Assembly: GCA_963575745.1 (NCBI GenBank)
Contig: CAUYUJ010000001.1
Span: 2,852,001 to 2,916,000, forward strand
Direction: 5' to 3'
DNA from: Prorocentrum cordatum
Lineage: Eukaryota
Length of the DNA: 64,000 nt
Position numbers and translations under genes: made by a program. Below are positions 1 to 60,873 of this stretch, piece after piece. Numbering within the stretch: position 1 is the stretch's first letter; each line of letters opens with the position of its first letter. The notes below the pieces were generated by a model. That model worked only from the letters and a program-made list of their open reading frames with translations. It ran no database searches and was not told the DNA's origin.

Positions 1-855
1 GATCTCGTCGTCGTCGTCATCCTCATACGGCTCGGGCGGGTCGGGCACGTACTCCTGCACGAAGGCCTTCACCGCCGGCAGCGACTGCGATGCGGGTTGC
101 ACTCTCTGCTCGGCCACGTCCATCTGCAGCAGCGCCGCACGGATCGAGGCCGCGTCCTTCTTGCCCTGGGCCAACGTGCGCAGGTTCACCTTTTTCTGCG
201 CACTGAGGTTGGCTCCTTCCTCAAGGTATCTAGCTTTCACTTTATCTGGTAAAGGAAGTCCGTGAACTTCAGCATCTGACAGCTGCTGGTCACGGCGCAG
301 CACGTAGTCGGTGAGAGATTCCCCTCGCTTGATCATGTAGTCAAAGGGCGCGTGCGAGTGGGGCAGGCGTTCCCTGTCGCCAGGGCGTTCGCCGTTCAGG
401 ATCGCCAAGTGCTCGAGCGCCTTCTGGACTCCGTCGGGCTGCATCAGCGAGGAGGCCAGCGGCTTGAACTTCCATTGCAGCTCTACCGGTAGCGATTCCA
501 CCAGCCGAGGAGCCTGTGACTCCGGAAGGTGCCAGGTGCGTCTTGACCAGGCCGTCACGTTCAGGCGATAGAACTCGAGCTGCTCCATGCCCAGCCAGGT
601 TGGCGGGGGGCCGAAGTCGCGCGAGCGGGGAGCTACTACCTCCCAACTCTCTGCAGAGTGCCAGTCAGAGTCTCGCCGCGCGCCGTCGTCTCGACCTCGC
701 CACCACTCGTCACGAGCACCACGGCCGCCAGAGCCCCAGCCCCGGCGCCAGCCCTGCTCGCTCCAGCCGGTCTCCGACCAGTTGTCGTCCGCGTCGGGCC
801 AGGCTGCTGGCTCTGCGTCGTCCTGGTCGTCTGTCTGGATCTCCGCGTCCGGCAT
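1..855 (-). CDS. Gag-like N-terminal part of an LTR (Ty1/copia-like) retrotransposon polyprotein; open to the left window edge
   Basis: Hand translation: ATG at 855 and 285 codons with no stop to position 1 (MPDAEIQ...FGPPPTWLGMEQLEFYRLNVTAWSRRT...APRLVESLP...DGVQKALEHL...FDYMIKRGESLTDYVLRRDQQLSDAEVHGLPLPDKVKARYLEEGANLS...SIRAALLQMD...DDDDEI). It is missing from the ORF track because the stop lies outside the window. The PPxW...W and RGESLxDY motif pattern resembles copia-type Gag; a PBS-like site lies upstream. Confidence 0.75.
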   Translation of the reverse strand, partial: MPDAEIQTDDQDDAEPAAWPDADDNWSETGWSEQGWRRGWGSGGRGARDEWWRGRDDGARRDSDWHSAESWEVVAPRSRDFGPPPTWLGMEQLEFYRLNVTAWSRRTWHLPESQAPRLVESLPVELQWKFKPLASSLMQPDGVQKALEHLAILNGERPGDRERLPHSHAPFDYMIKRGESLTDYVLRRDQQLSDAEVHGLPLPDKVKARYLEEGANLSAQKKVNLRTLAQGKKDAASIRAALLQMDVAEQRVQPASQSLPAVKAFVQEYVPDPPEPYEDDDDDEI

Positions 856-960
856 GGGCCGGTGCAGTGTCGGTCTGTGGGCGGTGGAGCCTCCTTCTCC
901 TCAGTCGGTCGCCTGGCGGCTCCTCCCGTCCTCGTCGAACGCCACGCGGTCCACGAACCA

Positions 961-1160
961 GCTCCCCTTACCACTGTCACAGGGTCGGGGGCCTATCGGG
1001 ACACGAGGGCTGTGAGAGGGACGGGAGGAGCTCTCTTTCAGTACGCCGTATGAGTCTCCGGGGACTCGCACCCTAAGCCTAAGCGGCTATAAGACAGTGA
1101 GGACATAGAGGGAGAGCGAGAGGGAGCGAAGAGAGACCCCCCAGGGGACAAACGGGGACA
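961..1160 (-). mobile_element. Putative 5' LTR and primer-binding site of the LTR retrotransposon
   Basis: Minus strand reads ...CCCTGTGACA-G-TGGTAAGGGGAGC: LTR-like CA end at 975-976, a 1-nt spacer, then a TGG-starting PBS at 961-973, about 105 nt upstream of the gag ATG. The outer LTR end is uncertain; TGTC candidates lie near 1096, 1105, 1150 and 1160. Confidence 0.55.
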
Positions 1161-1900
1161 GACCCAAGAGACCTCCAAGATGCCCAAGATGGCCTCTAAG
1201 ACGGCCCTGGAGCACCCCAGGAGGGCCCCAAGTCGGCCCAGGCAGGCCCCCAAGACGGCTTCCGACGGCGTCAGACGGGCCGGGAGCCCACCAAGATGGC
1301 AGGAAGGCCAGAGAAGGCTAAAATCATTGATTTCCCACGAGTTTTTGAAGGATTGTGGCATTTGTTTTTTGTTCAGCCTTCCGACGGCCCGAGAGGGCCC
1401 AAGAGCCCAAAAGATCGCCCAAGAGGTCTCCATTATGGCCCCAGCCCAAGACGGCCCCAAGAGGCCCCCAAGACGGCCAAGAGGCCTCCAAGACGGCCAA
1501 AATGGCCTCCAAGACGGCCATGGAGCACCCCGAGAGGGCCGCAAGACGGGCCAGAGAGGCCTCCAGACGGCTTCCGACTACGTCAAACGGGCCAGAAGCC
1601 CACCAAAACAACCAAAGATGACCCCCGCGAAGCCCACAAAGGTCCAAGAAGCTCCCAGGAAGCTCCCAAGAGGCCCCAAGAGTGTCCCCAGAGGCTCCCG
1701 AGATGCCCCTCACCTCCTCCTCCGCCTCCTCTTGATTTTCCCCGCCATCCTCCCCCAAGTGTTCCCCGAAGGGTTTCCACAACGGTTGGGGGAACAGATG
1801 GCCCGATACTTTGGCAGAGCTTTTGCCACACCGCTCGGCCACATGGGCGATTCTAGAAGGCGGGGGGCGGCGGTGATTCGCCGTGGGCGTCTTCGGTGAA
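1161..1900 (+). mobile_element. CCAAGA-rich non-autonomous interspersed element, 3' part (left end apparently lost to the LTR insertion)
   Basis: Degenerate GGCCCCAAGA/CCTCCAAGA units. The tail 1755-1900 (GTGTTCCCCGAAGGG...GGCGGCGGTGATTCGCCGTGGGCGTCTTCGGTGAA) closely matches 30525-30671. Confidence 0.65.
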
Positions 1901-3970: not shown

Positions 3971-5574
3971 TATTCCTCTCGCGCGCCCACGCAGCTTCCG
4001 CTCGCCCGCACCCACGACACGAACGAAACGATTCTCTGGTTGGGGGTTTCCGTTCCACTGCGATCTCACCCCCAACCTCCGACGTGGTACACGATGTGAG
4101 GTGCAATTGATGCTGCGCACTATATGGTGCACCATCTATGTTGCGCACTCTCGTACAATCTATGTTGTACACTCTAAGTGGTGCGACCCATGTGGTGCAA
4201 TCTACGTGGAGCAATCAATGTGTCGCAATCGTAGTTTGACCTGTACACGTTGTGCAATCCTAGTGGTGTAATGTTTGTGATGTGCGCAATTTACGTGATG
4301 CAATCTATGTTGTGCAAGATCAGCTGTACAATCTACGTGGTGCAAGCAATGTCGCACAATCGATGGTGCGAAAGACATGGAGCAAACGCAGCTGTGTACT
4401 CTACGTAGTGGAACATATCGCGAACGATCACAAAGCGCGCCGCAAGCGCGAACAATACATCGCGCCATCTATGATGTAGTACATGTGTGGCACTTTCTGC
4501 TGTGAATTCTGCGTGGTGCAATATACGTAATGCAACCGACGAAGTGCATTAAAAGTTTTTGCAGTTGATGTGGTGCAATCTGTGCAATGCAATATATGTT
4601 TTGCAATATATGATGTGGTGCCCCCCTGTGCTGTGCACGTAGAATATGCTCGTAGTGAGTTGTCCACTCCACTGCTCGCGCAATTACCCCACCCACCCAC
4701 CAGCAACTTGGTTTGCAAGACCCATGCCGCGGCGATTGCGATGAGTGCTTGGAATTGGTTGGTGCATCTCTGCGGCCGCGCAGCGGCCAGCTAGCTTGGC
4801 GCGACCGACGCGGCCGCTGTGGCGCTGACCGCTGGGCACTTCCCTTGGGGAACTTCAGTGCGAGCCGGCGACTCGGGCGGGCGCGGTATCATGACAGCGT
4901 CGACAAAGGTAGACGCGATGATGATGGCAACGATGATGGTGACCATGATGACAACGACGACGGCAAGGCCAGTGGCGGCGCCGATGCTGATCGCTCCGAC
5001 GACGAAAAGGCGTCCTCGCGTCGGTGATGAAAATGTTGGATGGAGTTAGAGATATGCGCGCGGCCGACGCGAGAGAGTGGTCCGCACGGTATACTTTGAC
5101 ACGGATCCTGCCCCCCCCAACACGCGCGCAAGGGCGTTCGAATGATTCCGACGTGCGGCGCGAAGAACCCGTTTGACAGAATTCAGCGTAAATGCTGAAC
5201 AACCCGTGGCTTTCTGCAGAACTCGCAGGGGCACGAGCGCAAACGTGTTTGAAGACTGACGTTGTAAAACCGTGTGGGTGTTAAATGTTTTCGGAGCGCT
5301 CGCGTCTGACATCCATGCGAAACGCAAGGTGTTTAAATCCATTCATCATGCGCGCGCGACGAAGCGCGCACATGTCGCCCCGTTTCCTTTGCAACGGATT
5401 CTTGCGACAGCACGCCCGCGCAGAGGTTCGAACGGTTCAGACGCGCGCGCGCGAGAGGCCTGTTTGGCAGCAGGTCGTGGACAGGTTGGAACCAAGTGGT
5501 TTTCTTAGGAATTCGCAAGCGCCAGAGCGCAAGCTGTTTGGAAAAATCGCGTTGCGAAACCAAATGGTTTAAGA

Positions 5575-6391
5575 ATCCGCCGGCCCCCTTGTGGGGCCAC
5601 CAGGCTGTAGGACCGTGATTCGCAGTTTCCTGTACCAGATGTAGTTTGTAGTTTCCAGTGTTACAGTTCTGCTTCTTGCTGGTTACTGTAACTAGTTGAC
5701 TTCTTGCTGGTTACTGTAACTAGTTGATTGACCGCGCGAGGGGGGGGGAGGCCCAAACAAGACTTTTAGCCTCCCCTGGGCGCGTTGTCTGAATTGCTGG
5801 GTGGGCTCGAAATCGACACCCCTCACGCAGATCCGCGGGGTCAGGGTCCAAAAACACATGGGATTTGCCACATTTCTGAAATTCGGTGCCACCCCTCACG
5901 CAGATCCGCGGGGTCAGGGTCCAAAAACACAGGGATTTGCCACATTTCTGAAATTCGGTGCCACCCCTCACGCAGATCCGCGGGGTCAGGGTCCAAAAAC
6001 ACAGGGGATTTGCCACATTTCTGAAATTCGGTGCCACCCCTCACGCAGATCCGCGGGGTCAGGGTCCAAAAACACAGGGGATTTGCCACATTTCTGAAAT
6101 TCGAACCCATCACGCACATCCATCGCAAGGCGTGGTAACCCAAACTGCGAGAACTCCCTCGGCCCTTTCATCGCAAGGTGTGGTAACCAAGCCCTTAAAC
6201 CATACACGTCTTACCAATCGCCAGGTGTGGTAACCCCTCTTGTGATCAGTTGGTTTTGCTGATTGCGACTCGGCTTCGCATGAAGTTTCGATACTGCTTC
6301 ACGACAGCGCCAAGGCCTCATGACTTAGCTCTTCCATGGCCCATTCTCCGAGAGAGGGGGCCGGCGGCAGGGGGCGAAGCCCTTACGGATA
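5575..6391 (+). mobile_element. Non-autonomous element with asymmetric terminal inverted repeats and a 3' GAA-loop hairpin (Helentron/HINE-like architecture)
   Basis: Left end AT-CCGCCGGCCCC (5575-5587) with hairpin GGCCCC-TTGT-GGGGCC. Right end GGGGCCGGCGG (6357-6367, perfect 11-bp inverse), then GGGC-GAA-GCCC (6372-6382), then TTACGGAT. It interrupts a family B copy. Confidence 0.65.
5818..6103 (+). repeat. 72-73 bp tandem repeat, ~4 near-identical copies
   Basis: Unit CCTCACGCAGATCCGCGGGGTCAGGGTCCAAAAACACAGGGATTTGCCACATTTCTGAAATTCGGTGCCACC, starting at 5821, 5894, 5966 and 6039. Confidence 0.95.
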
Positions 6392-6999
6392 TTGTCGGGG
6401 CATTCGTTTTTGACATCGTTGCCAAACATGTAGTTTTGAGGAGTTTCGGCATGCGCGCGCGACGACGCGCGCGTGCGCGTCTCGCCCTAATGTTGGCAAG
6501 GGATTGTTGCAAACTGATGATGCGTTTTGCGAAAGGCGACGGTGGGGCGGCACAGGCCTGCCAAGGATGGTGCGAGTTCATCTTTAGGGTAGGCCGCGGG
6601 GCAGGATCGCACGTGAACTGCAATAATAAAGAAGCCCGTCAAGTCCGGAGGGGGGTCGATCGTAAATGCTATTTTACAGCGGAGAAAAGATGCAATGCAA
6701 TATGCATATACTATGCACTTAAATGTGTATATATATATGTATACATATATATATATGTATATAGATAATCCCCAAACAGCGTTTGCACCACTTCAGAATG
6801 CTTAATTGCGCTAGCCATCCCAAGGGGATTGCCGCCCGCCGCCGCGTGCGCCACCCGTCGCCGCCCGTCGCCGTCGCCGCCTGTCGGGTCGATCGCCGCC
6901 CGTCGCCGCCCGCGCCGCCCGTCGCCGTCGCCGCCCGTCGGGGCGATCGACGGCCTTAGCCGTTCGCGCCGCCCGTCGCCGCCCGTTGTTTCTGCAAAC

Positions 7000-8094
7000 T
7001 TTTAAACAACGAAGATCCACCACCCACCCGCCGGGCATTATCGGCCCACCTTTCTCGCGTTGCAATTTGCATCTGGTTCTGCCCCATCGTCCATCCTGAA
7101 TATGAACTCGGATCAACCCAGTCAGGCCGGCATCGCCCCCCCGCCATATGCTGCAACAATCTTATGCGCGCGCACTCGTTCATCAAAAACCGTAACTTGC
7201 CAACAACCCCTTGCAAATAATGGGGCGAAGTGCGAACGCGTCGTCGCGCGCGCATCCCAAAATATGTCTCAATACTGGTTTTGGGAAAAATGTCAAAATC
7301 GAATGCCAAAAACAGCATTTTAAAAATGGTTTCGCGACACGAATATCCACGAATGCTTAAGCACACCATGTATTTTGTCAACATTCTCATAACATGCTAC
7401 CAGACGGGCTTTGCGCGCGCATGTCGAAATCGTTCGCACGCCTTTGCGCGCGCTCTGGGGTGGCACGATCCGTGTCGAATCAAACTATGCGGACCACTCT
7501 CGCGCGTCTGCCGCGCGCGCATGTCGAATTTTTCCCAAAGCCTTCATCGCCGACGCGAGGACGCCGTCATCGTCACCGGCGTGGTCAGCATCGGCGCCGT
7601 CATTGGCTGCCTCGTCGCCGCTGTCAGCATCGCCACCAGCATCGCTACTATCATCGTGTCGACCGTCGTCGGCGTTGCCATGATACCGCGCCCGCCCAAG
7701 TCGCCGACTCGCACTGAAGTGCCCACGCTGCGCGCGCGAGCATGCGCGGGCTTGCGCGGCCGCAGGCATGCACCAGCCAACGCCAAGCACCCATCGCAAT
7801 CGCTTCCGCGTGGGTTTTGCAAACCTAGTTGCGGGTGGGCGGGTGGGGTGATTGCGCGAGCAGTGTACTTGACAACTTCAACTTCGGCAGCGGACTTGCG
7901 CCGCATAGACTGCATTACATCATACATCGCATACATTGCACACGTACACCGATTGCCCCGCACGCATTGCACTACATAGGTTGTACCGCATACACTCTCC
8001 TTTCTAAAAGATTAATAGATTCTACCCCCCTTCAACCCCCTCCCCCCCCGGACTTATCGGTTCCCCCTGGGATAGTATGATTTCATACATATAT

Positions 8095-8139
<45 letters not shown>

Positions 8140-8998
8140 GCACACTCGTCCATCCTAAATATGAAATCGTACCATCCCAGCCAAACCGGGTTCCCCCCCG
8201 GGCTTCCCTTTTAAAAAGCACTATGCGGTGACATTTGTTGCTCTAACATAAACACTTTTTCGCGAATCCCCTGCAACAAATGGGACGAAGTGCACACGCG
8301 CGCGTCGTCGCGCGCGCATGCCGAAATCCTTCAAAAACCTTCGGTTCCGGAGAGATTTCAAAATTGAATTTCCAAAAAACATACACAAACACAGGGTTTC
8401 GCAACATTGATTTGCTAAAGCAGCTTACGCGCGAGCTCTTGCGAAATCTTGAGAAAACCATGGGTTTTTCAAGACTTTCACAAAATGCTACCAAACGGGC
8501 TTCGCGCGCGCATGTCGAAATCTGTCGAACGCCCTTGCGCGTGTGACGTCGCGAGAATCCTCTGCAACAAATGGGACGAAGTGCAGACGCGCGCGAAGTC
8601 CCGCGCATATGCCGAAATCCTTCAAAAACCTTCGGTGTTGGAAAGATTCCAAAATCGTGTGTCCAAAAAATCTACAAAAACTTAAGGTTTCGCAACACGG
8701 GTGTTCAACAAAAGCGTGCGCGCGCCCTCCTCCCTCGTCGTCGTCGTCGCCGTCGTCGTCTTCTGTCTTTCCTCGTCGTCGTCGTCGTCTTGGCGTCGTC
8801 GTCGCTTCCGTCGTCGTTGTCGCCGTGGTCGTCCTTCCTCCCTCGTCGTCTTCGTCGGCGTCTCGTCGTTGTCCCTCCTATTTCGTCGTCGTCGTCGTCG
8901 TCGTCGTGGTCATCACTCCTCCCTCGTCGTTATCCTCCTTCCTCGTCGTCGTCGTCGTCCGTCGTCGGCGTCTCGTCGTCGTCCCTCCTATTCCGTCG

Positions 8999-9045
<47 letters not shown>

Positions 9046-10730
9046 TTCCCTCCTCCGTCGTCGTTGTCGTCGTCGGCGTCGCCGACCTTCCTCCTTCTTC
9101 GTCGTTCGCGTCGTCGCCGTCTTCCCTCCTCTATCGTCGTTGTCGTCGTTGTCGCCGTCGTCGTCCTCCCTCCTCCCTCGTCGTCGTCTTCGTTGGCGAC
9201 GTCGTCGTCGTCGTGTTCGTCGTCGTCGTCTTCGTCGACGTCGACGTCGGCGGTGTCGTCGTAGTCGGTGTCTGCGGCGCCGTCGTCGTCGTTGTCGCTG
9301 TCGTCGTCGGTGTCGTGGCCAAGTGCCATGTGGTACCTACCGTCACGGTCTTGTCTTAAGAAGTCTTGCGACCAAGTTGCGGGTGGGAGGGTGGAATGTT
9401 TGCACGAGCCGTAGAGAGGACAGCTTCAAAACGGTCAAAATGAATTGCACCACGTAGATCGCACCACGTAGATCGCATTACACGGGTTGCATCGCATACA
9501 ATGCCCCACATAGATTGCACCGCGTAGATTGCACCACGTAGATTGCACCGCATACATGGCGACGCGTTCGTGCGAATTCTTAAGGAAACGGTATGTTTTT
9601 CAACGTATTCATGGGGTTCTGCCAAACGGGCCTCTGGCGCCGAGCGCTGGCATCATCCGCGTGCCCTTGCGCGCGTGCTGGGGGGAGGGGTACGATCACT
9701 GCCAACAAAAAAAAGCACGCGGGCCGCTTTCGCGCGTCGGCCGCGCGCGCGCGTCGAATTTTTTTCAACGCCGTCATCGCCGACGCGAGGGTGCCGCCAT
9801 CGTCGCCTGCGCGATCAGCATCGGCGCCCACGCTGGCCGCGCCTTCGTCGATGCGAGCATCGTCGCCAACATCGCCGCTGCCTTGTCGAGCCCGCCCACG
9901 ACGCCGACTCGCAACGAGGTGCCAGCTGGGATGCGCGCGGCGGCCAGCACCGCCGCAGCCGTGTCGGCCGCGTCAAACTAGCTGGCGACTGCGCGCGCGC
10001 GTTAGGGTTGGCGCGGCCGCAGGCATGCACCAGCCAACGCCAAGCATGCATCGCAATCACCACCGCATGGGTTTTGCAAACCAAATTGCGGGTGGGTGGG
10101 TGGGATGTTTGCCAGAGCGCGGGTTGCGTCAACTCATGGGTGGACATTAGTTGCACCGCATAGACTGCATGACGCAGGTTGCAGCGCATGCGTTGCAACG
10201 CGTAGATTGCACCGCATATCTTGCATTGCAAAAATTGTCGCCGCCCTTGGGTTGCACCGCGTAGATTGCCTGACATAGCTTGCACCGCATGCGTAGCACG
10301 ACGTAAGCTGCGCCGCATACAATTGTTCACATAGATTGCGCCGCATACAATGCCCCACGTAGATTATCAGGATCATCGGTGCCCCTTTTTTCTGGCGCAA
10401 ATTAAAACATGGTTCTGCCCCGTCGTCCATCCTAAATCGGAATCCGTACCCTCCCAAGGAAAACCGGCATCGACTTCCCCTGTCGTCCTCTGAATATTCA
10501 TTCGAAAAACTATGCACGCGCACTCGTTCATCAATAGTCGCCAGTTTCAGTTTGCAAGATACCCCAAACAAACGAATGTGACGGAGTGCGCGCGCGAGCG
10601 TCGCCGCGCGCGCATGCCGTCATCCTTCAACGCGCGCGGTTCCGCGAGAGTTTCAAAACCGAGTGCCCAAACAAACGTAACACATATATGTCTATTTACA
10701 TATATGCACACACGCATATATATATATACA

Positions 10731-10761
<31 letters not shown>

Positions 10762-13700
10762 AAAAAAAATATATATATATATATGGCTGCGAAGCAAGGT
10801 TTTTCAAATAATCAGCAACAACAGAAAAACAACTAAAAACAAACAAACAAACTGGCTCTCGCGCCCTTGCGAATACTGGCAACAAAACATGTTTTCACAT
10901 TTTCATCAAATGCTACCAGACGGGGCTGCGCGCGCGTCGAAATCGCTCGGGCGCCCTTGCGCGAGTGTTGTCGCGATAACCCTTTGCAAAGAAAAAACGG
11001 CCGCGGAAAAAAAAAAAAAACTTCGCGCGCGCCGTTGCGCGCGCGCGTGCCGAGATCCGTCAAATACCTTAGGTTTCGCATGGGGTTCAAACCGAGTGTC
11101 GCGGAACCATATCAGAACACATGGTTTCTCAACGTCAGCTTTCCAAAAAAGCTCGCGCTCGCGCCCTTGCAGATTCTTATGAAAACCATCGGCTTTCAAC
11201 ATTGCCATTGAACTCTGCCAAGCGGGCCTGTCGCGCCGCGAGGCGGAATCATTCGCGCGCCCTTGCGCGCGCGCGCAGGGGTGGTGGGGGGGCGGGGGGG
11301 CGCGCCAAATAATGCCACGCGGGCCACTCTCGCGCGTCGGCCGCGCAAGCAATCGAATCCTTCCAGAACCTTCGTCGCCGACGCGAGGGCGCCGTCGTCG
11401 CGGTCGGCGCGATCAGCGTCGGCGCCGTGGCCGGCCGCGCCGTCGTCGCTGCCGACGCCGTCGCCAGCGTCGCTATTATCGGCCTCGTGTCTAACGTTGT
11501 CGACGTTGCCATGATATCGAATTCGCGCCGGTCGCGCCAGACTAGCCGGCCGCTGCGCGCGCGAGCATGCGCGGGCTAACGCGGCAGCAGAGACGCACAT
11601 GCCAACGCCGAGCGCCCGTCGCAATCGCTCCGCATGGGTTTGGCGAGCCAAATTGCGGGTGGGCGGGTGGGATGCTCGCGCGGGCAATCGAGCCGACAAC
11701 TTCAAGTTCGGCAGGGTGAATTGCACCGCGTAGAATGCATTGCATAGGTTGCATCGCACACAGTCTCCTCTCTAAAAGAAAAAAGACCCCCCCCCCGGAG
11801 TGAACGGGCCACCTTTCCGCATTTTCAATTTACGTGTGATTCTGCCCCATCGTCCATCTTAACTGCGAATTCATGCTATCCCAGCCACACCCGCATCGCG
11901 CCCCCCCCCCCCTCCGCCATCCTGTGCAAAAAGATGCGCGCGCACTCGTTTATCCAACATCATTGTTTTCCTCATTAGCCCCTTGCAACAAACGGGGCGA
12001 AGTCACGCGCGCGCGTCGTCGCGCGCACATGCCGAAATCCTTCAAAACCGTCGGTTTCGGAAAGATGTCAGACTCGAGTTTCAAAAAAAAAACATTCAAA
12101 ACCACACGGTTTCGCAACGCTGGTTTTCAAAAAAAGCCTACCCGCGCGCTCTTGCGAAATCTCACGAAAACCATTGGATTTTCAAGATTTCAAACAAAAT
12201 GCGACCAAACGGGCATCGCGCGCGTAGAAATCCACCCTAGCGCGCGTGTCGTCGCGAGAATCCTCTACAACAAATTGAACAAAGCGCAGTCGCGCGCGTC
12301 GTCGCGCGCGCGCCGAAATCCTTCAGGAACCTTCGGTTTTGGAAGGATTTCGAAATCGCGCGCCCCCAAAAAAACACATACACACAAAATCAAACAGTTT
12401 CGCTACGCGGGTGTTCAACAAAAGCGCGCGATCTTGCGTCGTCGTCGTCGTCGCCGTCCTCCCTTCTCCCTCGTCGTCGTCGTCGCCGTCGTCGTCCGCT
12501 TTCTTCCCTCGTCGTCGTCGTCGTCGTCGCCTTAGCGTCGTCGTCGTTTCCGTCGTCGTTGTCGCCGTGGTCGTCCTTCCTCCCTCGTGGTCTTCGTCGG
12601 CGTTTCGTCGTTGTCCCTTCTATTTCGTCGCCGTCGCCGTCGTCGTCGTCGTCGTCTTCCCTCCTCCCTAGTCGTTGCCGTCGTCGCCGTCGCCCCTCCT
12701 CCCTCGTCGTCGTCGTCGACGTCTTCGTCGTCGTCGTCTTCGTCGTCGCCGCCGTCGTCGTCGTCGCCGTCGTCGTCGGCGGCGTCGTCGTCGTCGTCGG
12801 CGTTGTTATCGTCGTCGTCGTCAACGTCGGCGTTGTCGTAGTCGTCGTCGTCGGTGTTGTCGTCGTCGTCGCTGTTGTCGTCGTCGAAGTCGCTGGTGAC
12901 TCGCCCGCAACGCCTGCCGCTGTCAACGTTGTCATGGTACCGCGCCCGCCCAAGTCGCCGACTCGCAATGAAGTGCCCGCTGCTATGTGCCCAATGATCA
13001 GCGCCGCCACGGCCGCGTCGGCCGCGCCAGACCAGTTGGCCGCTGCGCGCGCGCGCTCGGGTTGGCGCGGCCGCAGCCGAAGCAGCTGTCATCATCGTCA
13101 CCAGCGCCGCTACTACCATCATCGCGGTTACCGTCGTCGACGTTGCCACGGTACCGCGCCCGCCCAAGTCGCCGACTCGCACTAAAGTGCCCACTGGGAT
13201 GCGCCGAGTGGCCGCGGGCTAGCTGCGAGCGGTCAGCGCCACCGCGGCCGCGCCGGTCAGGCCTGACCAGCTGGCCGCTGTGCGCGCGAGCATGCGCGGC
13301 CGCGTCGGCAGCGCCAAACTAGCTGGCCGCTGCGCGCGCGAGCGCGCGCGGGCTACCGCGGCAGCAGAGATGCACCAGCCAATGCGAAGCACCCAGCGCA
13401 ATCGCTCCGCATGGGCTTGGCAAGCCAAGTTGCGGGCGGGCGGGTGGGATGACCGCGCAAGCAGTGGAGCCGACATCTTCGCATTCGACGAAGTGATTGC
13501 ACCGCATAGAGTGCACCGCATGTGTTGCATTACGTAGGATACATCGCACGCATAGCAGCACACATATTCTCCTTTCTAAAGAGATATAGACCCCCCCCTC
13601 CCCCGGAGTTCTCACTCCCCCCGCGTCCTATGTAAATCACATATGATTATGACCACATGTCCATCCAAAATATGAAAGCACAATGTCCCAGGCCAGCCAG

Positions 13701-14780
13701 GTTCCCCCCCCTGAGGTTCCCTTGTGAAGAAACACTATGCGGTGATATGTTTGGTTCCAACATATCACTTTATTTCACGAATCCCTTGCAAGGAAACAGA
13801 ATAGGAGGAACAACGAAAAAAAAATGACGAAGTGCACACGCGCGCGTCGTCGCGCGCGCATGCCGAAATCCGTAAAAAAACCTCGGTATCGGAAGGATTT
13901 CGCAACTGAGTTCCAAAAGAAATCATACAAAAACACCGGGGTTCGCAGCATTGGTTTGCGAAAGCAGCTTGCGCGCGAGCTCTTGCGAAATCTTGAGAAA
14001 ACCATGGGGTTTTCAATATTTTCACAACATGCTACCAAACGGGCTTCGCGCGCGCATGTCGAAATCTATCGAACGCCCTTGCGCGTGTGCCGTCGCGAGA
14101 GTCCTCTGCAACAAATGGGACGAAGTGCAGACGCGCGCGTCGTCGCGGGCGTATGCCGAAGTCCTTCAAAACCCATGGGTTTCGGAAGAATTTTTAAATC
14201 GTGTGTCAAAAAAAAATACAAAAGCACACAGTTTCGCAAAACTGCTTTTCAACAGAAGCGTGCGCGCACGCTCTTGCGTCGTCGTCGTCGTCGTGGTCGT
14301 CGCCGTCCTCCCTCCTCCCGCGTCGTCGTCGTCGTCGTCGCCTACGTCGTCCTCTGTCTTTCCTCGTGTTCGTCGTCGTCGTCCTCTTTGGCGTCGTGGT
14401 CGTTTCCGTCGTCGTTGTCGCCGTGGTCGTCCTTCCTCCTCCTCCTCCCTCGTCGTCGTCGTCGTGCGTCGTCGGCGTCTCGTCGTCGTCCTTCCTATTT
14501 CCTCGCCGTCGTAGTCGTCATCGTCGTTGTCGTCGTCGTCGTCTTCCCTCCTCCCTCGTCGTTGTCGTCGACGGCGTCGCCGTCCTTCATTCTTCTTCGT
14601 CGTTCGCGTCGTCGTCGTCGTCCCTCCTCCCTCGTCGTTGTCGTCGTTGTCGTCGTTGTCGCCGTCGTCGTCTTCCGTCCTCCCTCGTCGTCGTCGTCGT
14701 CGTCGTCTTCGTCGTCGTCGTCGTCGGCGTCGGCGTCGTCGTCTTCGTCCTCGTCGACGTCGGCGTCGTCGTCGTCGAGG

Positions 14781-14816
<36 letters not shown>

Positions 14817-25700: not shown

Positions 25701-25914
25701 TCTGGCCTTCCTGCTCCATTTTCTCCCTCTTCCCACCTCCTCCTCCTCCTCCTCCTCCATCTCACCTCCTTCTTCCCTCTTCCCCCTCCGTTCCCGCTTG
25801 CGCTCCCGCACAGGGGAAAGGAAACAAGAAGGCAGAAGGAGGAGGAGGGAGGACGACTTGGAGGAGGGAGGGATACACAAATATGCTTGCACACAGAAAT
25901 ACATAACTACATAC

Positions 25915-26934
25915 ATCCTACCAGCCCTCTGGGCGCAGGTGGTCTAACGATGTCTCTCTTTCCTCTTCGACAAACCTGCTCAGGCTCGGGTGTTACTTAT
26001 GTGTTGGGAGGGCGGGTGGGAGTGAGCTAGACGGCTTGCGGGCGGGTGGGTAGCTTGACCCCTCCCCCTGCCCCCTCCCCTGGACCTGGACGGGGGGCTT
26101 CGCGAGCGGCCAGGGCGTCCAAGATAGCCTGAGATGGCTCCAAGAGAACCTCAGAGAGCCCAAGATGGCCTCCAGGATCGCCCAAGATAGCCCAACATGG
26201 CTCAAGATACATACCAACATGCCTCCAAGAGGCCCCGAGAGGGCCACGAGACAGTTCTAGGTGCTTTCGGCGACCCTGTAGGACCTCCCCGAGAAGCCAA
26301 AACCCTTCAAACACCATGAGAAAATCACTGATGTGTGCCTTCTCGCCTTCTCGCTTCCAATGCGTTTTTGTGGCGCCAAGGTGGCCTCAAGATGGCCCAA
26401 GAGAGCTCCAAGAAAGGCCCAAGAGGCCCCCCGCCCAAGATCGCCCCAAGAGGGCCCTAGCCGCAAGAAGCTATTCCGATGGCCCTGGAAGGGGGGGGGG
26501 GAAATCGAGGACCCCCCCTCCTTTGATCGATGAGCTCCAAGATGGCCCCGGGATGCGCTCCATAGCTCCGAAGAGGGCCCCAAGAGAGCTCCAAGAGGGC
26601 CCCAAGAACGCCCCATGAGGGCCCCAAGGCGCCCCCAAAGAGCCCCAAGAGGACCCCAAGCTCCCCCGAAGAGCCCCAAGAGGGCCCCAAGATGCCCCAA
26701 AAGAGCTGCAAGAGGACCCCAATATCCTCCAATACAGCCCCGTAGCTCCAAGAAGGCCCTGGGGATGGCCCGAAGAGGCCCTCCAAGGCCACCCCTTTGC
26801 TCCCTGAGATCTCTCTTGTTCACCCTGGTTGCCCGCTCTGTTTCACTATTTGTGTCTCTTCGTCCCTATTCCCGTCAGCTCTGATGGGCAGGGCTCCTAA
26901 ATTGGCTGGTGCGGACTCGCGACGCGTAAACAAT
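25915..26934 (+). mobile_element. CCAAGA-rich non-autonomous element with asymmetric termini and a 3' hairpin
   Basis: Left AT-CCTACCAGCCC with hairpin GCCC-TCT-GGGC. Right GGCTGGTGCGGA (26904-26915), CGC-GAC-GCG hairpin, TAAACAAT. ACATAC occurs on both flanks. Confidence 0.55.
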
Positions 26935-26977
26935 ACATACCTACAAACAAATCAATAGGTATACATATATATAGGGG

Positions 26978-27013
<36 letters not shown>

Positions 27014-27659
27014 AAAAATGTTTCTTCCCAAATATTGCTCTGCAGGGGCCGTAGCGGATATTGAAGGATTTGGCGAAAATGCCCAACCGATTTCGGTGGG
27101 TGGCCGGGTTCCCTGGTTCCCGGTTCTGAGTTTCCGGGTTCCTTGTAGTTGGTTCCAGGCCGATTTCGGTGGGCGGCGGGGTTCCCGGGATTCGGGGTTC
27201 CTGATTGATCTTTTCATCAATCGGTCTCACAATCCATCTTTCACTATCGATCCCACTATCGATCTCACCGAATCGATTTCAGAATCGGTCCCACGCGTCC
27301 TCACGATCGATCCCACTATTGATCTTACAATCGATGCCAATATCCGTATCACTAGTTGTCAAACCATCCGCTGATTGGGTTTTCCTCTTGGCTATATATA
27401 TATATGTACAATCAGAGAATACGACTTCCACGGGCACTACTGCATGTAGTCTGAACAATATACTTCAGGGAGGTCCCAGGAACCGATCCGCCCCCCCCCC
27501 CGAACAGAAAACTTCTGAGACCTCTCCAGGACCCTTCCACCCCCCCCGTCTGTGTAACCACTCCCCCACCCCCAGGAACCACCCTGCCAGGAACCACTCT
27601 CCCCTACCCCCTCCCCAACTCGCTGCTGGCAAACGACAGCGGTGTGACAACTGGGGCCA

Positions 27660-27995
27660 GAAGACGACGACTACGACGACGAGGAGCGACGAACGTGAAC
27701 GACAAATGACGACGACGAACGACGAAGGACGAACGACGACGACGGACAAATGACGACGGAAAATGGAGTACGGACTTCGGACTACGACGGACGACGACGT
27801 CCACGACGACGACGACGACGGAAGACGACGACGACGAACACGCCGACGACGCGAAGACGACGACACGACGACAACGAGGACGACGACGATGACGACAACA
27901 ACGGAACAACGACGACGACAACGACGGACGACGACGACGACGACACCGACGCGAAGATGAGGACACGATGAAAACGGCAACGACAGTGACGACGT
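27660..27995. repeat. Degenerate (GAC)n microsatellite
   Basis: Read directly. Confidence 0.85.
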
Positions 27996-28028
27996 CACAC
28001 GTAGAAATACACATACATGTATACGCGT

Positions 28029-28821
28029 ATCCGCCACCGTGCCCATGTGGCACAAAGCGGAACGTCCTCAGGTCTTTTGCCTAATTCACAGAGCATTCGT
28101 CCTCGCTGCTTAAAGATATTCAAGGAGCCCGATCCGAATTTCTCCAATACATCGGTTCCGATTAGCGGAGCGCCGCTCCGCCAGCTGGCCTCAAAACATG
28201 CGCGCCGATTGCCAGAATGCTGCGAATGGGACCAGCGGAGCGCCACTCCGCCAATCCGCCATATCGGAGCGCCGCTCCGCATTTGGGCCTCAACGCATGC
28301 GCGCCGATTCCTGGAGTGCACCGCAACATATTCGCAGAGCGCCGTTCCGCGAATTGGCCGCACAACATGCGATTCGCAGAATGCTCCGCGCCGGATTAGC
28401 GCAGCGCCGCTCCGCTAATTGGCCTCAAAGCATGAGAGCCGCTCCGCAAATTGGCATCAAAACATGCGCAGCAAACCCGCAATTCCCGGAGTGCTCCGCG
28501 TCGGATTCGCGGGATGCCGGTCGGCTAATTTGCATCAAAGCATGCGCGTCGACATTGCTTGCGTCGCAACTGCCTCCAAGAGTCCCCCGAGAGGCTCCCC
28601 ATGGTATCACATCAACGAGGCCTCGCCCTTGAGATGCCCCAAGAGGCCACCAACAGGCCCAAAAGAGTCCCCAAGAAGCTCCAAAACGGCTGCCAAGAGG
28701 CCTTCTCACTGCTCCCAAAAGGCCCCCGAGAGGCCTCCCACGAGATCCCAATCCAAACGAACATCCATCAGGCTTCGTACCCACAATCCAGGCATGGTGG
28801 GATAGGCCGAAAGCCATTCGA
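28029..28821 (+). mobile_element. Non-autonomous element with asymmetric termini, GCGCCGCTCCGC sub-repeats and a CCAAGA block
   Basis: Left AT-CCGCCACCGTGCC with hairpin GTGCC-CATGT-GGCAC. Right GGCATGGTGG (28791-28800) followed by GGC-CGAAA-GCC (28805-28815). Confidence 0.55.
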
Positions 28822-29560: not shown

Positions 29561-29655
29561 GGCCATTGGATTCGCGCCCCGTCTTGCCTACCCCCCACAC
29601 CCCCCTTGTTATTGCTCCCGACGAACGGATCGCGACGCTACGCGCGGTTTCCGTC

Positions 29656-30671
29656 ATCCGCCCCCCCCCTGTTGAGTTATCAAAGGGTGCCTGGCGTGCT
29701 AGATCCTACGGCTTGGTATCAGGTCTTCCCCAATAGAAAACCTTCTGGGGTTTCGGCGCGTGCCGCCAGACACCCAGAAAGCTTCATGCGAGGTGGTCGC
29801 AAAAGTTTTTGCTGCTTAAGATGGCTCTACAACGGCCCCAGAATGGCCTCCAATACGGCCAAGATGGCCCTGAAGTTCGCCCAAGATGGTCCAAGACTGC
29901 CCAAAAGGGTCGAATACGCCTCCAAATCCGAACAAGAAGCCTCACAGACGGCACCAGACGGCCCAAGCGTCCCCCAAGAGGCCTTGACGACGGCTCGAAA
30001 GGCCTCCAAGAGGTCCTCCAGGAGGGCCCGAAGAGGCCCAAATCATTGATTTCCAAATGGTTTTAAAGGATTTTGGCGTTTGCTTTTGTTCTGCCTTCCA
30101 GCGGCCCAAGACGGCCAAAGAGGCCCCCAATATCGCCCCCAAAGCGCACAGCCCCATAACGACCATAGTGGCCCCCAAGACGAGCCCCAAAAGGCCCCAG
30201 GACAGCCCATGAGGCCTCCGCGACGCCCAAGATGGCCTCCACGACGGCCCTGAAACACCCCCAAAAGGGCCCCAAGAGACCCCCAAGACGCCTTCAAACG
30301 GCATTTTGTGGGCCAAGAGTGCCCTAAGACCGCAAAAAAAGGCTCCCGTGAAGTCCCCAACGGCATCCAAGATGCCCAGGTAGGCCTCCAAGAGACCTCC
30401 AAGAGGCCCCAGCAAGCTCACAGGAGGCCTCAAGAGTGCCCCAAGCGGCTCCCAAGAGGTCTCCTCCCCCTCCTCCTCCTTGTTCCTCCCTCTCCTCATC
30501 CTCCTCAAGCCTCCTCTTTTTCCCCAACGTGTTCCCCGAAGGGTCTCCGCAACGGCTGGGGGGAACGCATGGTCCAACAGCGTGCCCAAACTTTGCCCAA
30601 AGGTTTCGCCACATAGGCGTGTCCTGAAAGGCAGGGGGCGGCAGTGATTCGCCGTAGGCGTCTTCGATGAA
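29656..30671 (+). mobile_element. CCAAGA-rich non-autonomous element with asymmetric termini and a 3' GTA-loop hairpin
   Basis: Left AT-CCGCCCCCCCCCCTG. Right AGGGGGCGGCAG (30633-30644), CGCC-GTA-GGCG (30650-30660), TCTTCGAT. The tail is homologous to 1755-1900. Confidence 0.6.
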
Positions 30672-51172: not shown

Positions 51173-52524
51173 ACACGTCCGCCACCGTGCCTTCGGGCAA
51201 GGAGCAGGCGTGTCCGCAGGTCCTTCGAAGTCGAATCAAAAAAATCCTAAGGGGATCGGACCCCAAACTCTCAAGTTTCCTGTGTTGCGGGGTGCGGTTC
51301 GTCGAATGACCTGGGGGCCCTAGAGGGCCCTCCGGCAGGCTAAGCGGGCCCCAAAAGGCCCCCAAGACGGTCCGAGAGGGCCCCGCGTCGCCGAACGATC
51401 GGTCCAAGACGCCCAAGATGGCTTCCTGACGACCTAGGAGGCCTCCACCAAGACACCCCAGAATGCAAGAGGCCTCCCGAGAGGAGGAGGGGGATGAGGA
51501 CGACGACGATGACGAACAACTCGACGACGACGCCAAAGGCGCAGGCGGATCAGGAGCAGCAGCACGCGCGCACACTCTGAGGAGCCACCTTGGTTCAAAA
51601 ATAATGCTTGGGGATATTGGGCTCTGGGTATAACTTTTTGACACACGCACACATGATTCCAGGTTCGGTCGTTCCTTTGGTTTTTGCTATCGGAACACCG
51701 TCGTTGTCTCAAAATAGTGCTGCCGCTGCAACATTGACCTCATTTAGGGTCAGCGCGATCCTCCCGTCGTTCAGAATGACGATCTCGCCGCAGCACGGGC
51801 CACTTTTCTGGATCCGAGTCCTTCTTCATCGTTGACGCCCCCCTCCTTTCCCCTCCCCCGCCTTCCCCTGGTCCTCGTGCTGCTCCCGCTCCTTCCACTC
51901 GAATTCCCGCTGCTGCTGCTGTTCGTCCTCGTCCTTCTTCTCGCCGTGCCCCTCCTCCTCCCTCATTCTCTTTTTCTTTCGCCTGCTCATCCTCCTGTTC
52001 ATTCGCCATCTCCTCCTCATCCTCCCCCTCCCTCCTCCCATGTGCTCATCTCCTTTTGGATTGCGCAAAACACGGTGAGTCCGTTTGGGAGTTCAGGGCC
52101 CGCTGTAACACGCGTCCGCAGATAGAGAAAAAGCCAGCCCAGTGGAAGGCATGGGTGGGTGGGATGTCAGATATGGCGCGAGCGCACCTGGCGTGCCCCT
52201 CCCCCCTCTCCCCCTTCTCATGCTCCTCCTCCTCCTCCTCCTCCTTCGACGACGGCGACGACGACGACGACTGGACGAGGGGCTGGGCGGGGCAGACCAG
52301 AGTGGCGCCAAGGCTGCGCGGCGATCCAACAGACCTAACAGCTGGGTCGCGCGCTCCGCGGCCCGTTCTTGCGCCGCTCGCAGCGGAGGAGGAGCAGGAA
52401 GGCAAAAAATGGCTCTCCGGGAAAACTGTTGGTTCCCGGGGAGATCGGTTGGTTCTCCGGGTGAACGTGACATCATGCCGAGTTGGTTCTCCTGATGAGA
52501 CCATTGCAGGTTTTCTACCCCCCC

Positions 52525-59719: not shown

Positions 59720-60873
59720 ACGTCAGATATGACGCGAGCGCACCTGGCTTGCCCTGCCCCCTCCCCTGGACGTGGACGGGGCTGGTCGCGAGGTGTCGGA
59801 GCGTCTAAAACGGCCTCGGCGAGGAAGCCAAAACCATTAGTCTTACTGGGGTTTTGGCCCCATGTTGGCCTCTTGGGGGGGCGACCCTAATTAAAGCTCC
59901 CCTCTTGTTTGATCGGTGTCCTCCAAGATTGCCAAAAAGTGATCCCAAGGTTCCCAAGGGCGCTCCAAGAGCGCCCCAAGAGGTGTCCAGGAGGCCCCAA
60001 GAGACCCCCAGGATGCCCCCAAGAGGCTCCCACGAGACCCCCAAGAGGGCCCAAGAGGCACCCAAGACGCCCCAAGAGGCCTCAGCGAGAATGCCAAAAT
60101 CATTGAATTTTCTGCGGTGTTGACCACATATTGGCCTCCTGGGGAGGTGAAGGACTCATTAAGCTGGCTGCAAGAGCTCCTGGGAGAGCCCAAGATGACC
60201 TCCAGGATGGCTCAAGATATCCCAAGACGCCTCAAGATGGCCCCCAAGATGCTCCAAGAGGCCCAAGACCTCTCCATGTGGCCAAAGAGCTCCCCCAAGA
60301 GCCCCCGAATATGATAACATCTCTCCAACACCTTGGGGAACTTGGTGTTTTATGTTTTCTCGCCGCTTCCGATGGCCATCCGAGGCCTCAAGACGGCCCC
60401 AAGAGCGCCCAAGAGCGTTCCAAGAGTGCCCCAAGAGCGCCCCAAGAGGCGACTTTTGGGTCTCCCGAGGGGCAACGCTAATTAAAGCTCCCCTCTTGTT
60501 TGATCGATGTCCTCCAAGATGGCCCCAAGAGTGCTCCCAAGGCTCCTCAGAGCACCTCAAGAGGGCCCCAAGAGGCGCCCAGGAGGCCCCAAGCGGCGCC
60601 CAAGAGGCCTCCAAGAGACTCCCACGAGACCCCCAACAGGCCAGAAGAATCTTCCCGAGACGCTCCAAGAGGCCCCCGGGACTGCCAAGAGGCTCCCAAG
60701 ACGCAAGAGAGGCCCAAGAGAGCCCCAAAACGGCCCCAAGAGCGCCCAAGAGTGGCCCACGAGCGCTCCACGAGGGACCCTTCATCTGTGTGCTGTCCAC
60801 TTCCCTGATCGAGGCAAGTCCTCTGGGCATCGTCTCTGGATAGGCTGGTGGGGTTACGCGGAGCGTCTAGAAT
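59720..60873 (+). mobile_element. CCAAGA-rich non-autonomous element, 3' end with a GGA-loop hairpin
   Basis: The head CCCTGCCCCCTCCCCTGGAC.TGGACGGGG matches ~26065-26096, and GTCAGATATG.CGCGAGCGCACCTGGC matches ~52166-52192. Right end GGCTGGTGGGG (60843-60853), ACGC-GGA-GCGT (60856-60866), CTAGAAT. Confidence 0.6.

What the first reader, a model, noticed from the sequence alone, without database searches (positions are those of the whole stretch)
5575..6391. Element family with asymmetric TIRs and GNA mini-hairpins whose joined ends would form an origin-like stem-loop (type example)
Seen: the left end is AT+CCGCCGGCCCC plus a hairpin. The right end is the exact inverse GGGGCCGGCGG, 4 nt, GGGC-GAA-GCCC, then TTACGG-AT. 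The same grammar with different sequences appears at 25915-26934, 28029-28821 and 29656-30671, with orphan right ends at 1862-1900 and 60843-60873 and an orphan left end at 51178-51200. The left and right ATIRs co-vary within each element. Inference: circularising at the shared AT pairs the two ATIRs into a stem whose loop holds a GNA-triloop hairpin and the junction, resembling a HUH-endonuclease rolling-circle origin. This is Helentron/Helitron2-like but may be a distinct dinoflagellate ssDNA transposition system. No autonomous partner is in this window.
Basis: partly seen in the sequence, partly recalled or inferred. Interest (0 to 1): 0.7.

Follow-up and report, generated by a model that had tools for sequence, protein, structure and literature searches.

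The report
Non-autonomous Helitron2-type rolling-circle transposons

Summary
The type example is real. E1 (5576-6389, + strand) is an ~813-bp insertion into a dispersed ~220-bp repeat. Uninterrupted paralogs bracket it within a few bases.

E1 structure:
- It starts T-CC with a 13-nt inverted repeat (5577-5589). The partner (6355-6367) lies 22 nt inside the 3' end.
- A 6-bp 5' hairpin overlaps the left repeat.
- A GGGC-GAA-GCCC hairpin plus a 7-nt tail ends the element.
- No target duplication longer than 2 nt is seen.

E2, E3 and E4 and three one-ended copies follow the same layout less perfectly. Contigs from other sequencing runs and a metagenome contig share homology that starts or stops at the predicted ends.

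This layout matches the published definition of Helitron2/HLE2 termini, including central tandem repeats as in HINE/DINE-1. A Helitron2-like RepHel element is already reported from the dinoflagellate Symbiodinium microadriaticum.

Not shown:
- No Rep/helicase is in the window (0 of 292 ORFs).
- No genome was available.
- The host taxon is untested.
- A|T versus T|T targeting is unresolved.

Generic grammar scans and folding energies were not above chance. The support comes from copy boundaries.

Verdict: new member of a known kind, with modest interest.

The parts
5576..6389 (+). E1, a complete non-autonomous element (814 nt counting the 5' T)
   Evidence: In 7 colinear paralogs of the surrounding ~220-bp repeat, flank homology stops at 5560-5570 and resumes at 6397-6435. 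The spacing fits removal of 5577-6389 within -4 to +7 nt.
5577..5589 (+). E1 5' asymmetric terminal inverted repeat (CCGCCGGCCCCCT)
   Evidence: It is the exact 13-nt reverse complement of 6355-6367. P is about 0.0009 against random placements.
5582..5598 (+). E1 5' hairpin (6-bp stem, 5-nt loop) overlapping the 5' repeat
   Evidence: It is the MFE and centroid structure in the DNA fold. The z-score is only -1.3.
5817..6103 (+). E1 internal tandem repeat, 73 bp x 3.9 copies, 99% matches
   Evidence: Tandem Repeats Finder and self-BLAST.
6355..6367 (+). E1 3' subterminal inverted repeat, ending 22 nt before the 3' end
6372..6382 (+). E1 3' mini-hairpin GGGC-GAA-GCCC
   Evidence: Read directly from the sequence. 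It is not the MFE structure of the isolated end. It does form in the joined-end fold.
6383..6389 (+). E1 7-nt 3' tail TTACGGA, followed by flank T6390
25916..26933 (+). E2, a complete element. 5' repeat 25917-25926; 3' repeat 26904-26914; hairpin CGC-GAC-GCG 26918-26926; tail 26927-26933; T26934.
   Evidence: Eight of the nine listed contig pieces over this end, from 4 other runs, begin at 25915 or 25916, and those with upstream sequence differ there. Metagenome loci L001 and L002 share the end from A-T-CC onward. The right end is homologous to 60843-60872, and homology stops after the T.
28030..28821 (+). E3, a degenerate element. 5' repeat 28031-28043; 3' repeat 28791-28803 (9 of 13); hairpin GGC-CGAAA-GCC 28805-28815; tail 28816-28821; next base is C.
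   Evidence: The left end is identical over 14 nt to 51178-51191, with unlike upstream flanks. L002 carries a right end of the same layout whose repeat is the perfect 13-nt complement of this left repeat.
29657..30667 (+). E4, a complete element. 5' repeat 29658-29665; 3' repeat 30634-30641; hairpin CGCC-GTA-GGCG 30650-30660; tail 30661-30667; T30668.
   Evidence: Six listed contig pieces from other runs end at 30664-30668 and then run on unlike the window. Homology with 1790-1897 ends at T-GAA. The left end has no independent support other than an E4-like left end in L002.
1140..1896 (+). 5'-truncated E4-family copy. Right end 1863-1896 with hairpin CGCC-GTG-GGCG; T1897.
   Evidence: BLAST 30398-30671 against 1643-1900 gives 75% over 277 nt; alignment. 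No left end was found upstream. The 1140 start is approximate.
59750..60872 (+). E2-family copy without a recognisable left end. Right end 60843-60872 with hairpin CGC-GGA-GCG; T60873.
   Evidence: Colinear BLAST matches to E2; alignment. The 59750 start is approximate.
51178..51470 (+). E3-family left end (T51178, repeat 51179-51191, hairpin TGCC-TTCG-GGCA) followed by CCAAGA-type satellite. No right end was found.
27487..27499 (+). Possible additional E4-like left end (A|TCCGCCCCCCCCC)
   Evidence: 13-nt match to E4's left end; sequence. No partner end was identified, so this is weak.
8270..8490 (-). Example of a paralogous empty site for E1 (others at 7200-7420, 13800-14030, 11900-12130, 12200-12420, 8500-8720, 10950-11170)

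Best explanation
These are non-autonomous rolling-circle transposons of the Helitron2/Helentron group (HLE2; comparable to HINE/DINE-1). There are four families in this window.

Each element carries only the cis signals:
- a 5' terminus T-CC whose first 8-13 nt form the left asymmetric terminal inverted repeat and also the 5' arm of a local hairpin;
- a variable interior, largely tandem repeats;
- the complementary repeat placed 18-26 nt inside the 3' end;
- a short G+C hairpin, ancestrally with a GNA triloop;
- a 6-7-nt tail ending in A.

Inferred mechanism. A RepHel transposase (HUH nuclease fused to a Pif1-like helicase) encoded elsewhere nicks at the 5' T and unwinds 5' to 3'. It recognises the 3' hairpin, possibly helped by pairing of the two repeats. 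It cleaves after the tail and joins the ends into a single-stranded circle. That circle inserts between A/T-rich target bases (A|T or T|T) without a target duplication.

Shown here: the anatomy, that E1 is an insertion with asymmetric ends and no duplication longer than 2 nt, and that copies elsewhere share only the termini.

Inferred: the enzyme, the circle and the cleavage points.
For: 1. Real insertion. Paralogs of the host repeat run across the E1 site. The 3' repeat lies 22 nt inside the insertion, so the asymmetry is real.

2. Boundaries in independent copies.
- For the E2 left end, 8 of the 9 listed contig pieces from 4 runs start at 25915/25916.
- For the E4 right end, 6 listed pieces stop at 30664-30668.
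- Pairwise alignments inside the window start or stop at the T.
- Metagenome loci share E2's end from A-T-CC onward.

3. L002 carries an E3-family right end. Its repeat is the perfect 13-nt complement of the E3/51178 left repeat. It is followed by GCC-GCA-GGC, a 7-nt tail and T.

4. Each feature matches the published Helitron2 definition: repeats of 8-15 bp; the 5' repeat 0-2 bp from the end and forming a hairpin; the 3' repeat 20-30 bp from the end, upstream of a hairpin; a 5' T (PMC3627910). The features also match HLE2/HINE descriptions, including central tandem repeats (PMC4067079; PMC11417382).

5. GAA-loop terminal hairpins occur in Fusarium FoHeli1/2.

6. Internal tandem repeats are present.

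7. Flank bases: the base before the 5' T is A in 7 of 8 left ends. The last element base is A in 6 of 8 right ends, and the next base is T in 7 of 8.

8. One contig in run X4 shows an E4-type right end running through a single T directly into an E1-like left end (table 7).
Against: - No Rep/helicase in the window (0 of 292 ORFs of 110 aa or more), and no genome to search. The defining enzyme is therefore not linked to these ends.
- Generic grammar scans do not exceed shuffles.
- Hairpin energies of the isolated ends are mostly no better than shuffles (z from -0.9 to +0.2 for 6 of 7 right ends).
- Cognate against non-cognate end pairing is distinct only for E1.
- E3's own repeats are poor (9 of 13; longest exact run 5), and its end is not followed by T.
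- E4's left end and E3's right end have no independent boundary support in the window.
- The 5' flank is A rather than the T expected if the first T belongs to the element. That fits A|T (the Helitron1 habit) as well as T|T.
Confidence: 0.8

Rival explanations
1. A separate single-strand transposition system. It would share the end grammar but be mobilised by a different HUH enzyme (for example a Y1 TnpA-like or viral Rep-like protein), not by a Helitron RepHel.
For: - No RepHel could be linked to the ends.
- The A before the 5' T in 7 of 8 ends, and the A-T at the 3' junction, differ from the textbook T|T site.
- The joined E1 ends fold into an origin-like stem-loop.
Against: - All structural features are already part of the Helitron2 definition.
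- HLE2 target sites are known to vary: T|T, TTTT|T/C and TNAT|A.
- A Helitron2-like RepHel exists in a dinoflagellate.
- No alternative enzyme was seen.
Confidence: 0.07
2. Ordinary cut-and-paste MITEs, with terminal inverted repeats and target duplications mobilised by a DDE transposase.
For: Size of 0.8-1 kb, no coding capacity, and short inverted repeats near the ends.
Against: - For E1 the 3' repeat is 22 nt internal to the insertion boundary defined by paralogs.
- No flanking direct repeat longer than 2 nt at E1, E3 or E4. The TACATAC repeat around E2 lies in a CATA-type microsatellite and is offset by one base.
- The constant hairpin-plus-tail module has no role in DDE elements (established knowledge).
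Confidence: 0.04
3. Not mobile units at all. The motifs would be chance inverted repeats and hairpins in a very repeat-rich, G+C-rich region, and the shared segments would be satellite or segmental duplicates.
For: - Loose versions of the grammar are common by chance.
- Folding energies are unremarkable.
- The window is full of satellites.
- There is weak A/T-rich similarity just upstream of E2-family ends.
Against: - Paralogous empty sites for E1.
- A 13-nt exact repeat placed at those independently defined boundaries (P about 0.0009).
- Ends shared with unlike flanks in other runs and in metagenome contigs.
- The upstream similarity is within the null range.
Confidence: 0.05

Closest known systems
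[quoted passage not shown]
   Same: - Short asymmetric terminal inverted repeats (8-15 bp).
- The 5' repeat lies within 0-2 bp of the end and forms a 5' hairpin.
- The 3' repeat lies about 20-30 bp from the 3' end, just upstream of a hairpin.
- The 5' base is T.
- Non-autonomous derivatives of about 0.65 kb exist.
- 5'-truncated copies are over-represented.
- Pairing of the two repeats is proposed to mark termination.
   Different: - The Chlamydomonas families insert after TTTT. Here the 5' flank is A in 7 of 8 ends.
- No RepHel could be tied to these ends.
- The termini share no sequence with the published examples as far as I could see. No sequence comparison was possible.
Helentron-associated interspersed elements (HINE, DINE-1; Thomas et al. 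2014, PMC4067079, passages). Also Helentron-derived satellite carriers in the Pacific oyster (PMC7492417; search listing and abstract start only).
   Same: - 12-15-bp subterminal inverted repeats.
- A short inverted repeat next to the 5' one.
- A 3' stem-loop.
- Central micro-satellite or tandem repeats that can make up half of the element.
- No coding capacity and no target duplication.
   Different: - Helentrons insert in TT and carry runs of T at their boundaries. Here there is a single T at each junction, with an A before the 5' T.
- The partner's AP-endonuclease domain cannot be assessed.
Fusarium oxysporum FoHeli1/FoHeli2 (Chellapan et al. 2016, PMC5148889, passages)
   Same: - Asymmetric repeats with the 3' copy 20-40 bp from the end.
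- Hairpins at both termini.
- GAA triloops in terminal hairpins.
- A 5' TC start.
- A target ending in AT on the 5' side (TNAT|A).
- Joined ends detected, which suggests a circle.
   Different: - FoHeli elements are 5-kb autonomous elements in fungi.
- Their GAA hairpin is at the 5' end. Here the GNA hairpin is at the 3' end.
Helitron2-like element of Symbiodinium microadriaticum (Heringer and Kuhn 2021, PMC8788227, passages)
   Same: If the window is dinoflagellate, this is the obvious candidate lineage for the autonomous partner. It encodes a RepHel without an endonuclease domain and is described as having a Helitron2-like structure.
   Different: I saw no sequence of its termini, and I did not open the paper's figures or supplements. 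The host of this window is unverified. No link was tested.
Canonical Helitrons (Helitron1/HLE1; described)
   Same: - A 5' TC start.
- A 3' hairpin near the end.
- No target duplication.
- The flanks here (A before, T after) would fit the A|T target.
   Different: - There is no 3' CTRR (0 of 8 ends).
- Inverted repeats and a 5' hairpin are present, and Helitron1 lacks both.
- The hairpin sits 6-7 nt from the end, not about 11 nt.

Membership tests
Helitron2/Helentron (HLE2) | Short asymmetric terminal inverted repeats: the 5' copy 0-2 nt from the end, the 3' copy about 20-30 nt from the 3' end | tested here: met
   - E1: 13 of 13, with the 5' copy 1 nt from the T start and the 3' copy ending 22 nt before the end.
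- E4: 8 of 8, ending 26 nt before the end.
- E2: 9 of 11 with a gap, ending 19 nt before the end.
- E3: only 9 of 13, but L002's E3-family right end is a perfect 13-nt complement.
Helitron2/Helentron (HLE2) | 5' hairpin that uses part or all of the 5' repeat | tested here: met
   - E1: 6-bp stem.
- E3: 5-bp inner and 5-bp outer stem (z = -2.7).
- E2: 4-bp stem.
- 51178 copy: 4-bp stem.
- E4's fold uses only the last Cs of the repeat.
- Energies are not above shuffles for E1, E2 and the 51178 copy.
Helitron2/Helentron (HLE2) | Stem-loop between the 3' repeat and the 3' end | tested here: met
   6 of 6 window right ends, and the L002 end, have a GC stem of 3 bp or more with a 3-5-nt loop ending 6-8 nt before the end. 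The base rate is 3.6% of positions. The test is partly circular, and the isolated-end folds are not significant.
Helitron2/Helentron (HLE2) | Insertion without target-site duplication | tested here: met
   E1 against 7 colinear paralogous empty sites shows no duplication longer than 2 nt, at a resolution of a few nt.
Helitron2/Helentron (HLE2) | Target T|T (Helentron) or T|T/C (Helitron2); TNAT|A in FoHeli | tested here: inconclusive
   All 8 left junctions read (A/G)-T-CC, and 7 of 8 right junctions read N-T. This fits T|T if the first T belongs to the host, or A|T if it belongs to the element. The paralogs are too diverged to decide.
Helitron2/Helentron (HLE2) | Autonomous relatives with the same termini encoding Rep (HUH) plus a Pif1-like helicase | not testable with these tools
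   No genome is held. None of the 292 window ORFs of 110 aa or more hits such a family. The metagenome loci are only 1.4 and 2.2 kb.
Helitron2/Helentron (HLE2) | Joined ends or a circular intermediate | tested here: inconclusive
   One Logan contig (run X4) reads from an E4-type right end through a single T into an E1-like left end. This could be a tandem insertion or a junction. Only 30 letters were seen.
HINE/DINE-1-type non-autonomous derivative | No coding capacity, with central tandem or micro-satellite repeats between conserved termini | tested here: met
   - TRF finds 73 bp x 3.9 copies in E1 and 32 bp x 4.6 copies in E2.
- E3 and E4 have internal repeats in self-BLAST.
- Copies share mainly their termini.
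Canonical Helitron (HLE1) | 3' CTRR terminus and absence of terminal inverted repeats | tested here: not met
   The tails end GGA, CAA, CGA, CGA, CGG, GAA, GGA and CCA. None is CTRR. Inverted repeats are present.
TIR transposon / MITE | Inverted repeats at both extreme termini, flanked by a fixed-length target duplication | tested here: not met
   The 3' repeat is 18-26 nt internal, and no consistent duplication is seen.

The most novel reading that the evidence does not exclude
These are the non-autonomous partners of the deep-branching dinoflagellate Helitron2-like lineage. They combine HLE2 ends with a Helitron1-like A|T target (element T-CC...A). That would make them a structural intermediate between the two Helitron groups. 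Their cargo would be what spreads CCAAGA-type satellite arrays through the genome.
Probability: 0.2. Interest if true: 0.5.

Novelty: new member of a known kind. Interest (0 to 1): 0.3.

Why it matters
Standard Helitron finders look for TC...CTRR and miss HLE2 elements. Families like these therefore probably sit unannotated in protist genomes.

Defined termini give a handle for three things:
- masking these repeats;
- dating insertions;
- finding the RepHel partner.

The elements also illustrate how tandem-repeat arrays can be carried around by rolling-circle elements, as described in oysters and flies. If the A|T target were confirmed, it would add a data point on how target choice varies within HLE2. 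None of this changes the current picture of Helitron biology.

Tried and rejected
- Earlier findings of this scan: three look-ups, nothing returned.
- Generic pattern scans for the grammar: not above shuffles. I dropped them as evidence.
- Global alignment with cheap gap extension to find the E1 breakpoints: it gave spurious matches inside the element. I replaced it with separate local alignments of the flanks. In that call, 2 of the 9 paralogs (15460-15680 and 10480-10720) gave non-colinear or very weak left matches and were left out of the spacing comparison.
- Sequencing runs: only small shares (0.10 or less of the sampled words), all kept as contigs, with no RNA holder listed.
- Laid contigs showed no joint skipping a whole element, so no orthologous empty site was obtained. 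Parts without cover are not interpreted.
- Viral contig scan with the E4 right-end core: 0 hits.
- Rfam on the whole window: 0 matches.
- Host identification:
  - A gag-like ORF (1-900, minus strand) gave one unnamed ENA homolog.
  - The atlas gave look-alikes with no informative taxa.
I scanned the ORFs instead.
- Search for a right end of the 51178 copy, a left end for the 1-1900 and 59.7-60.9 kb copies, and ends for the inverted satellite block at 28900-29560: none found.
- Literature: 'Helentron' or 'asymmetric terminal inverted repeats' (75 papers), 'Helitron' with 'dinoflagellate' (34), and 'Helitron' with 'Symbiodinium' (14). Only PMC8788227 describes a dinoflagellate Helitron2-like element. 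I found no description of non-autonomous families of this kind in dinoflagellates in these searches. Subscription papers and Repbase are not covered.

Full report
**What is there**

The window is G+C-rich and packed with satellites.

A5575-T5576 is followed by CCGCCGGCCCCCT. That stretch is the exact 13-nt reverse complement of 6355-6367, two bases longer than reported. The left repeat also forms the 5' arm of a local 6-bp hairpin (5582-5587 with 5593-5598). After the right repeat come 4 nt, the mini-hairpin GGGC-GAA-GCCC (6372-6382), the tail TTACGGA (6383-6389) and T6390.

**Is E1 an insertion?**

Yes. E1 sits in one copy of a dispersed ~220-bp repeat with the core GCATGCGCGCGCGACGACGCGCGCGTG. 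I aligned E1's two flanks separately to 9 other copies.
- The left matches ended at 5541-5576 and the right matches began at 6392-6435.
- None ran into the element, although the queries included 64 and 70 nt of it (multiple alignment).
- In 7 colinear paralogs, the distance between the two matches fits removal of 5577-6389 within -4 to +7 nt.
- The other 2 paralogs gave non-colinear or very weak left matches and were set aside.

The insertion is therefore about 813 bp. The 5' repeat is at its very start, and the 3' repeat ends 22 nt before its end. No flanking duplication longer than 2 nt is visible. The asymmetry is real.

**The other copies**

| Copy | Coordinates | Repeat match | 3' hairpin | Tail | Next base |
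|---|---|---|---|---|---|
| E2 | 25916-26933 | 9 of 11 with a gap | CGC-GAC-GCG | 7 nt | T |
| E3 | 28030-28821 | 9 of 13 | GGC-CGAAA-GCC | 6 nt | C |
| E4 | 29657-30667 | 8 of 8 | CGCC-GTA-GGCG | 7 nt | T30668 |

The orphan ends are homologs of these.
- 1790-1897 aligns with E4's last ~110 nt, and identity stops at T-GAA.
- 60799-60873 aligns with E2's last ~75 nt and diverges after the T.
- 51178-51191 equals E3's first 14 nt. Only 3 of the 20 upstream positions are identical.
- A further possible left end lies at 27487.
- All ends are on the + strand.

**Evidence from outside the window**

No genome is held. I laid Logan contigs of four coded runs on 25500-31000.
- Nine listed contig pieces cover E2's left end. 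Eight begin at 25915 or 25916. Those with upstream sequence differ there.
- Six pieces cover E4's right end and stop at 30664-30668, then run on unlike the window.
- One contig in run X4 continues from an E4-type right end through a single T into an E1-like left end.

A metagenome scan with 23 nt of E2's left end gave two loci. L002 carries three ends within 650 bp.
- An E2-type left end, preceded by A.
- An E4-like left end, A|TCCGCCCC.
- An E3-family right end. Its repeat is the perfect 13-nt complement of the E3/51178 left repeat. It is followed by 5 nt, GCC-GCA-GGC, a 7-nt tail and T.

**Junction bases over all ends seen**
- The base before the 5' T is A in 7 of 8 left ends.
- The last element base is A in 6 of 8 right ends.
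- The next base is T in 7 of 8 right ends.

**Chance**

The grammar written loosely is common.
- A 10-mer with one mismatch plus any small hairpin gave about 4000 hits on one strand (timed out).
- A strict version gave 5 hits against 4.1 in shuffles.
- An intermediate version gave 58 against 24.3, mostly repeats.

Folding energies of isolated ends are mostly no better than shuffles. The joined-end fold prefers the cognate partner clearly only for E1 (-21.3 against -8.0 to -14.1 kcal/mol).

Once boundaries are fixed, the longest exact inverted match (first 16 against last 50 nt) can be compared with 20,000 random placements.

| Element | Longest exact match | P |
|---|---|---|
| E1 | 13 | about 0.0009 |
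| E4 | 8 | 0.017-0.03 |
| E2 | 7 | 0.04-0.07 |
| E3 | 5 | not significant |

A GC-only hairpin ending 6-8 nt before the end is present at 6 of 6 ends, against a 3.6% base rate. That test is partly circular, because the ends were chosen with the grammar in mind.

GNA loops occur in E1, E4, the 60843 end and L002, so each of the four families has at least one. The real support comes from the empty sites and the copy boundaries, not from motif statistics.

**What it is**

The layout matches the published definition of Helitron2 (Bao and Jurka 2013, PMC3627910, passages read).
- Repeats of 8-15 bp.
- The 5' copy 0-2 bp from the end, forming a 5' hairpin.
- The 3' copy 20-30 bp from the end, upstream of a hairpin.
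- A 5' T.
- Compensatory changes.
- A proposal that pairing of the two repeats marks the end of replication.

Other published descriptions fit as well.
- Helentron-associated HINE/DINE-1 elements add central tandem repeats (PMC4067079).
- HLE2 is summarised in the same way in PMC11417382 and PMC13085455.
- Fusarium FoHeli1/2 have GAA-loop terminal hairpins, a TNAT|A target and joined-end amplicons (PMC5148889).
- A Helitron2-like RepHel element is reported from Symbiodinium microadriaticum (PMC8788227).

The elements here carry tandem repeats and no Rep or helicase. All 292 ORFs of 110 aa or more were scanned against Pfam, and every hit was below its family cut-off except one short-domain match (DUF4816, a domain of unknown function) in the 12-mer satellite array near 39.2 kb; none was a Rep or helicase family.

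**Mechanism**

The mechanism is inferred. A RepHel supplied in trans would nick at the 5' T and unwind the strand. It would recognise the 3' hairpin and tail, join the ends into a single-stranded circle, and insert it at an A/T site without duplication.

**Open points**
- The transposase has not been found.
- The choice between A|T and T|T targeting is undecided.
- The host taxon is unnamed.
- E4's left boundary and E3's right boundary lack independent support.

**Verdict**

Non-autonomous Helitron2-type elements, a new member of a known kind. Confidence 0.8, interest 0.3.

Noticed in passing
window 5300-15700: A dispersed repeat family of about 220 bp with the core GCATGCGCGCGCGACGACGCGCGCGTG. 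There are at least 10 copies, mostly in the opposite orientation to the copy that E1 interrupts.
   Followed up: partly
window 1-900, minus strand: An open frame of 300 aa (P0001) that looks like a retroelement gag. The atlas look-alike is a Retrotrans_gag cluster at score 0.90, Pfam gave no hit, and there is one unnamed ENA homolog at 50% identity.
   Followed up: partly
window 38933-40736, 42222-44433, 53424-55480, 50088-51174, 55946-57235, 58011-59236: Very long micro- and minisatellite arrays: 12-mers x150 and x181, a 79-mer x26, and ACT/TAC trinucleotide arrays. They create long spurious open frames.
   Followed up: no
window 28900-29560, minus strand: A block of the same CCAAGA...GGCCC-type satellite that fills E2-E4, but inverted and lying between E3 and E4. 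It has no recognisable Helitron2-type ends.
   Followed up: partly
L002 1532-886 (minus strand of the metagenome contig): Three element ends of three different families lie within 650 bp: an E3-type right end, an E4-like left end 40 nt further on, and an E2-type left end. This suggests clustered or nested insertion, as in window 25.9-30.7 kb.
   Followed up: partly
window 25890-25915; L002 912-887; Logan loose end before 25915: Weak A/T-rich similarity (a CATAA motif) just upstream of E2-family left ends at three loci. It is within the null range of flank comparisons, but it could reflect an extended target preference.
   Followed up: partly
window, all element ends: All eight recognisable ends (E1-E4, 1863-1896, 60843-60872, 51178, 27487) are on the + strand.
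   Followed up: no
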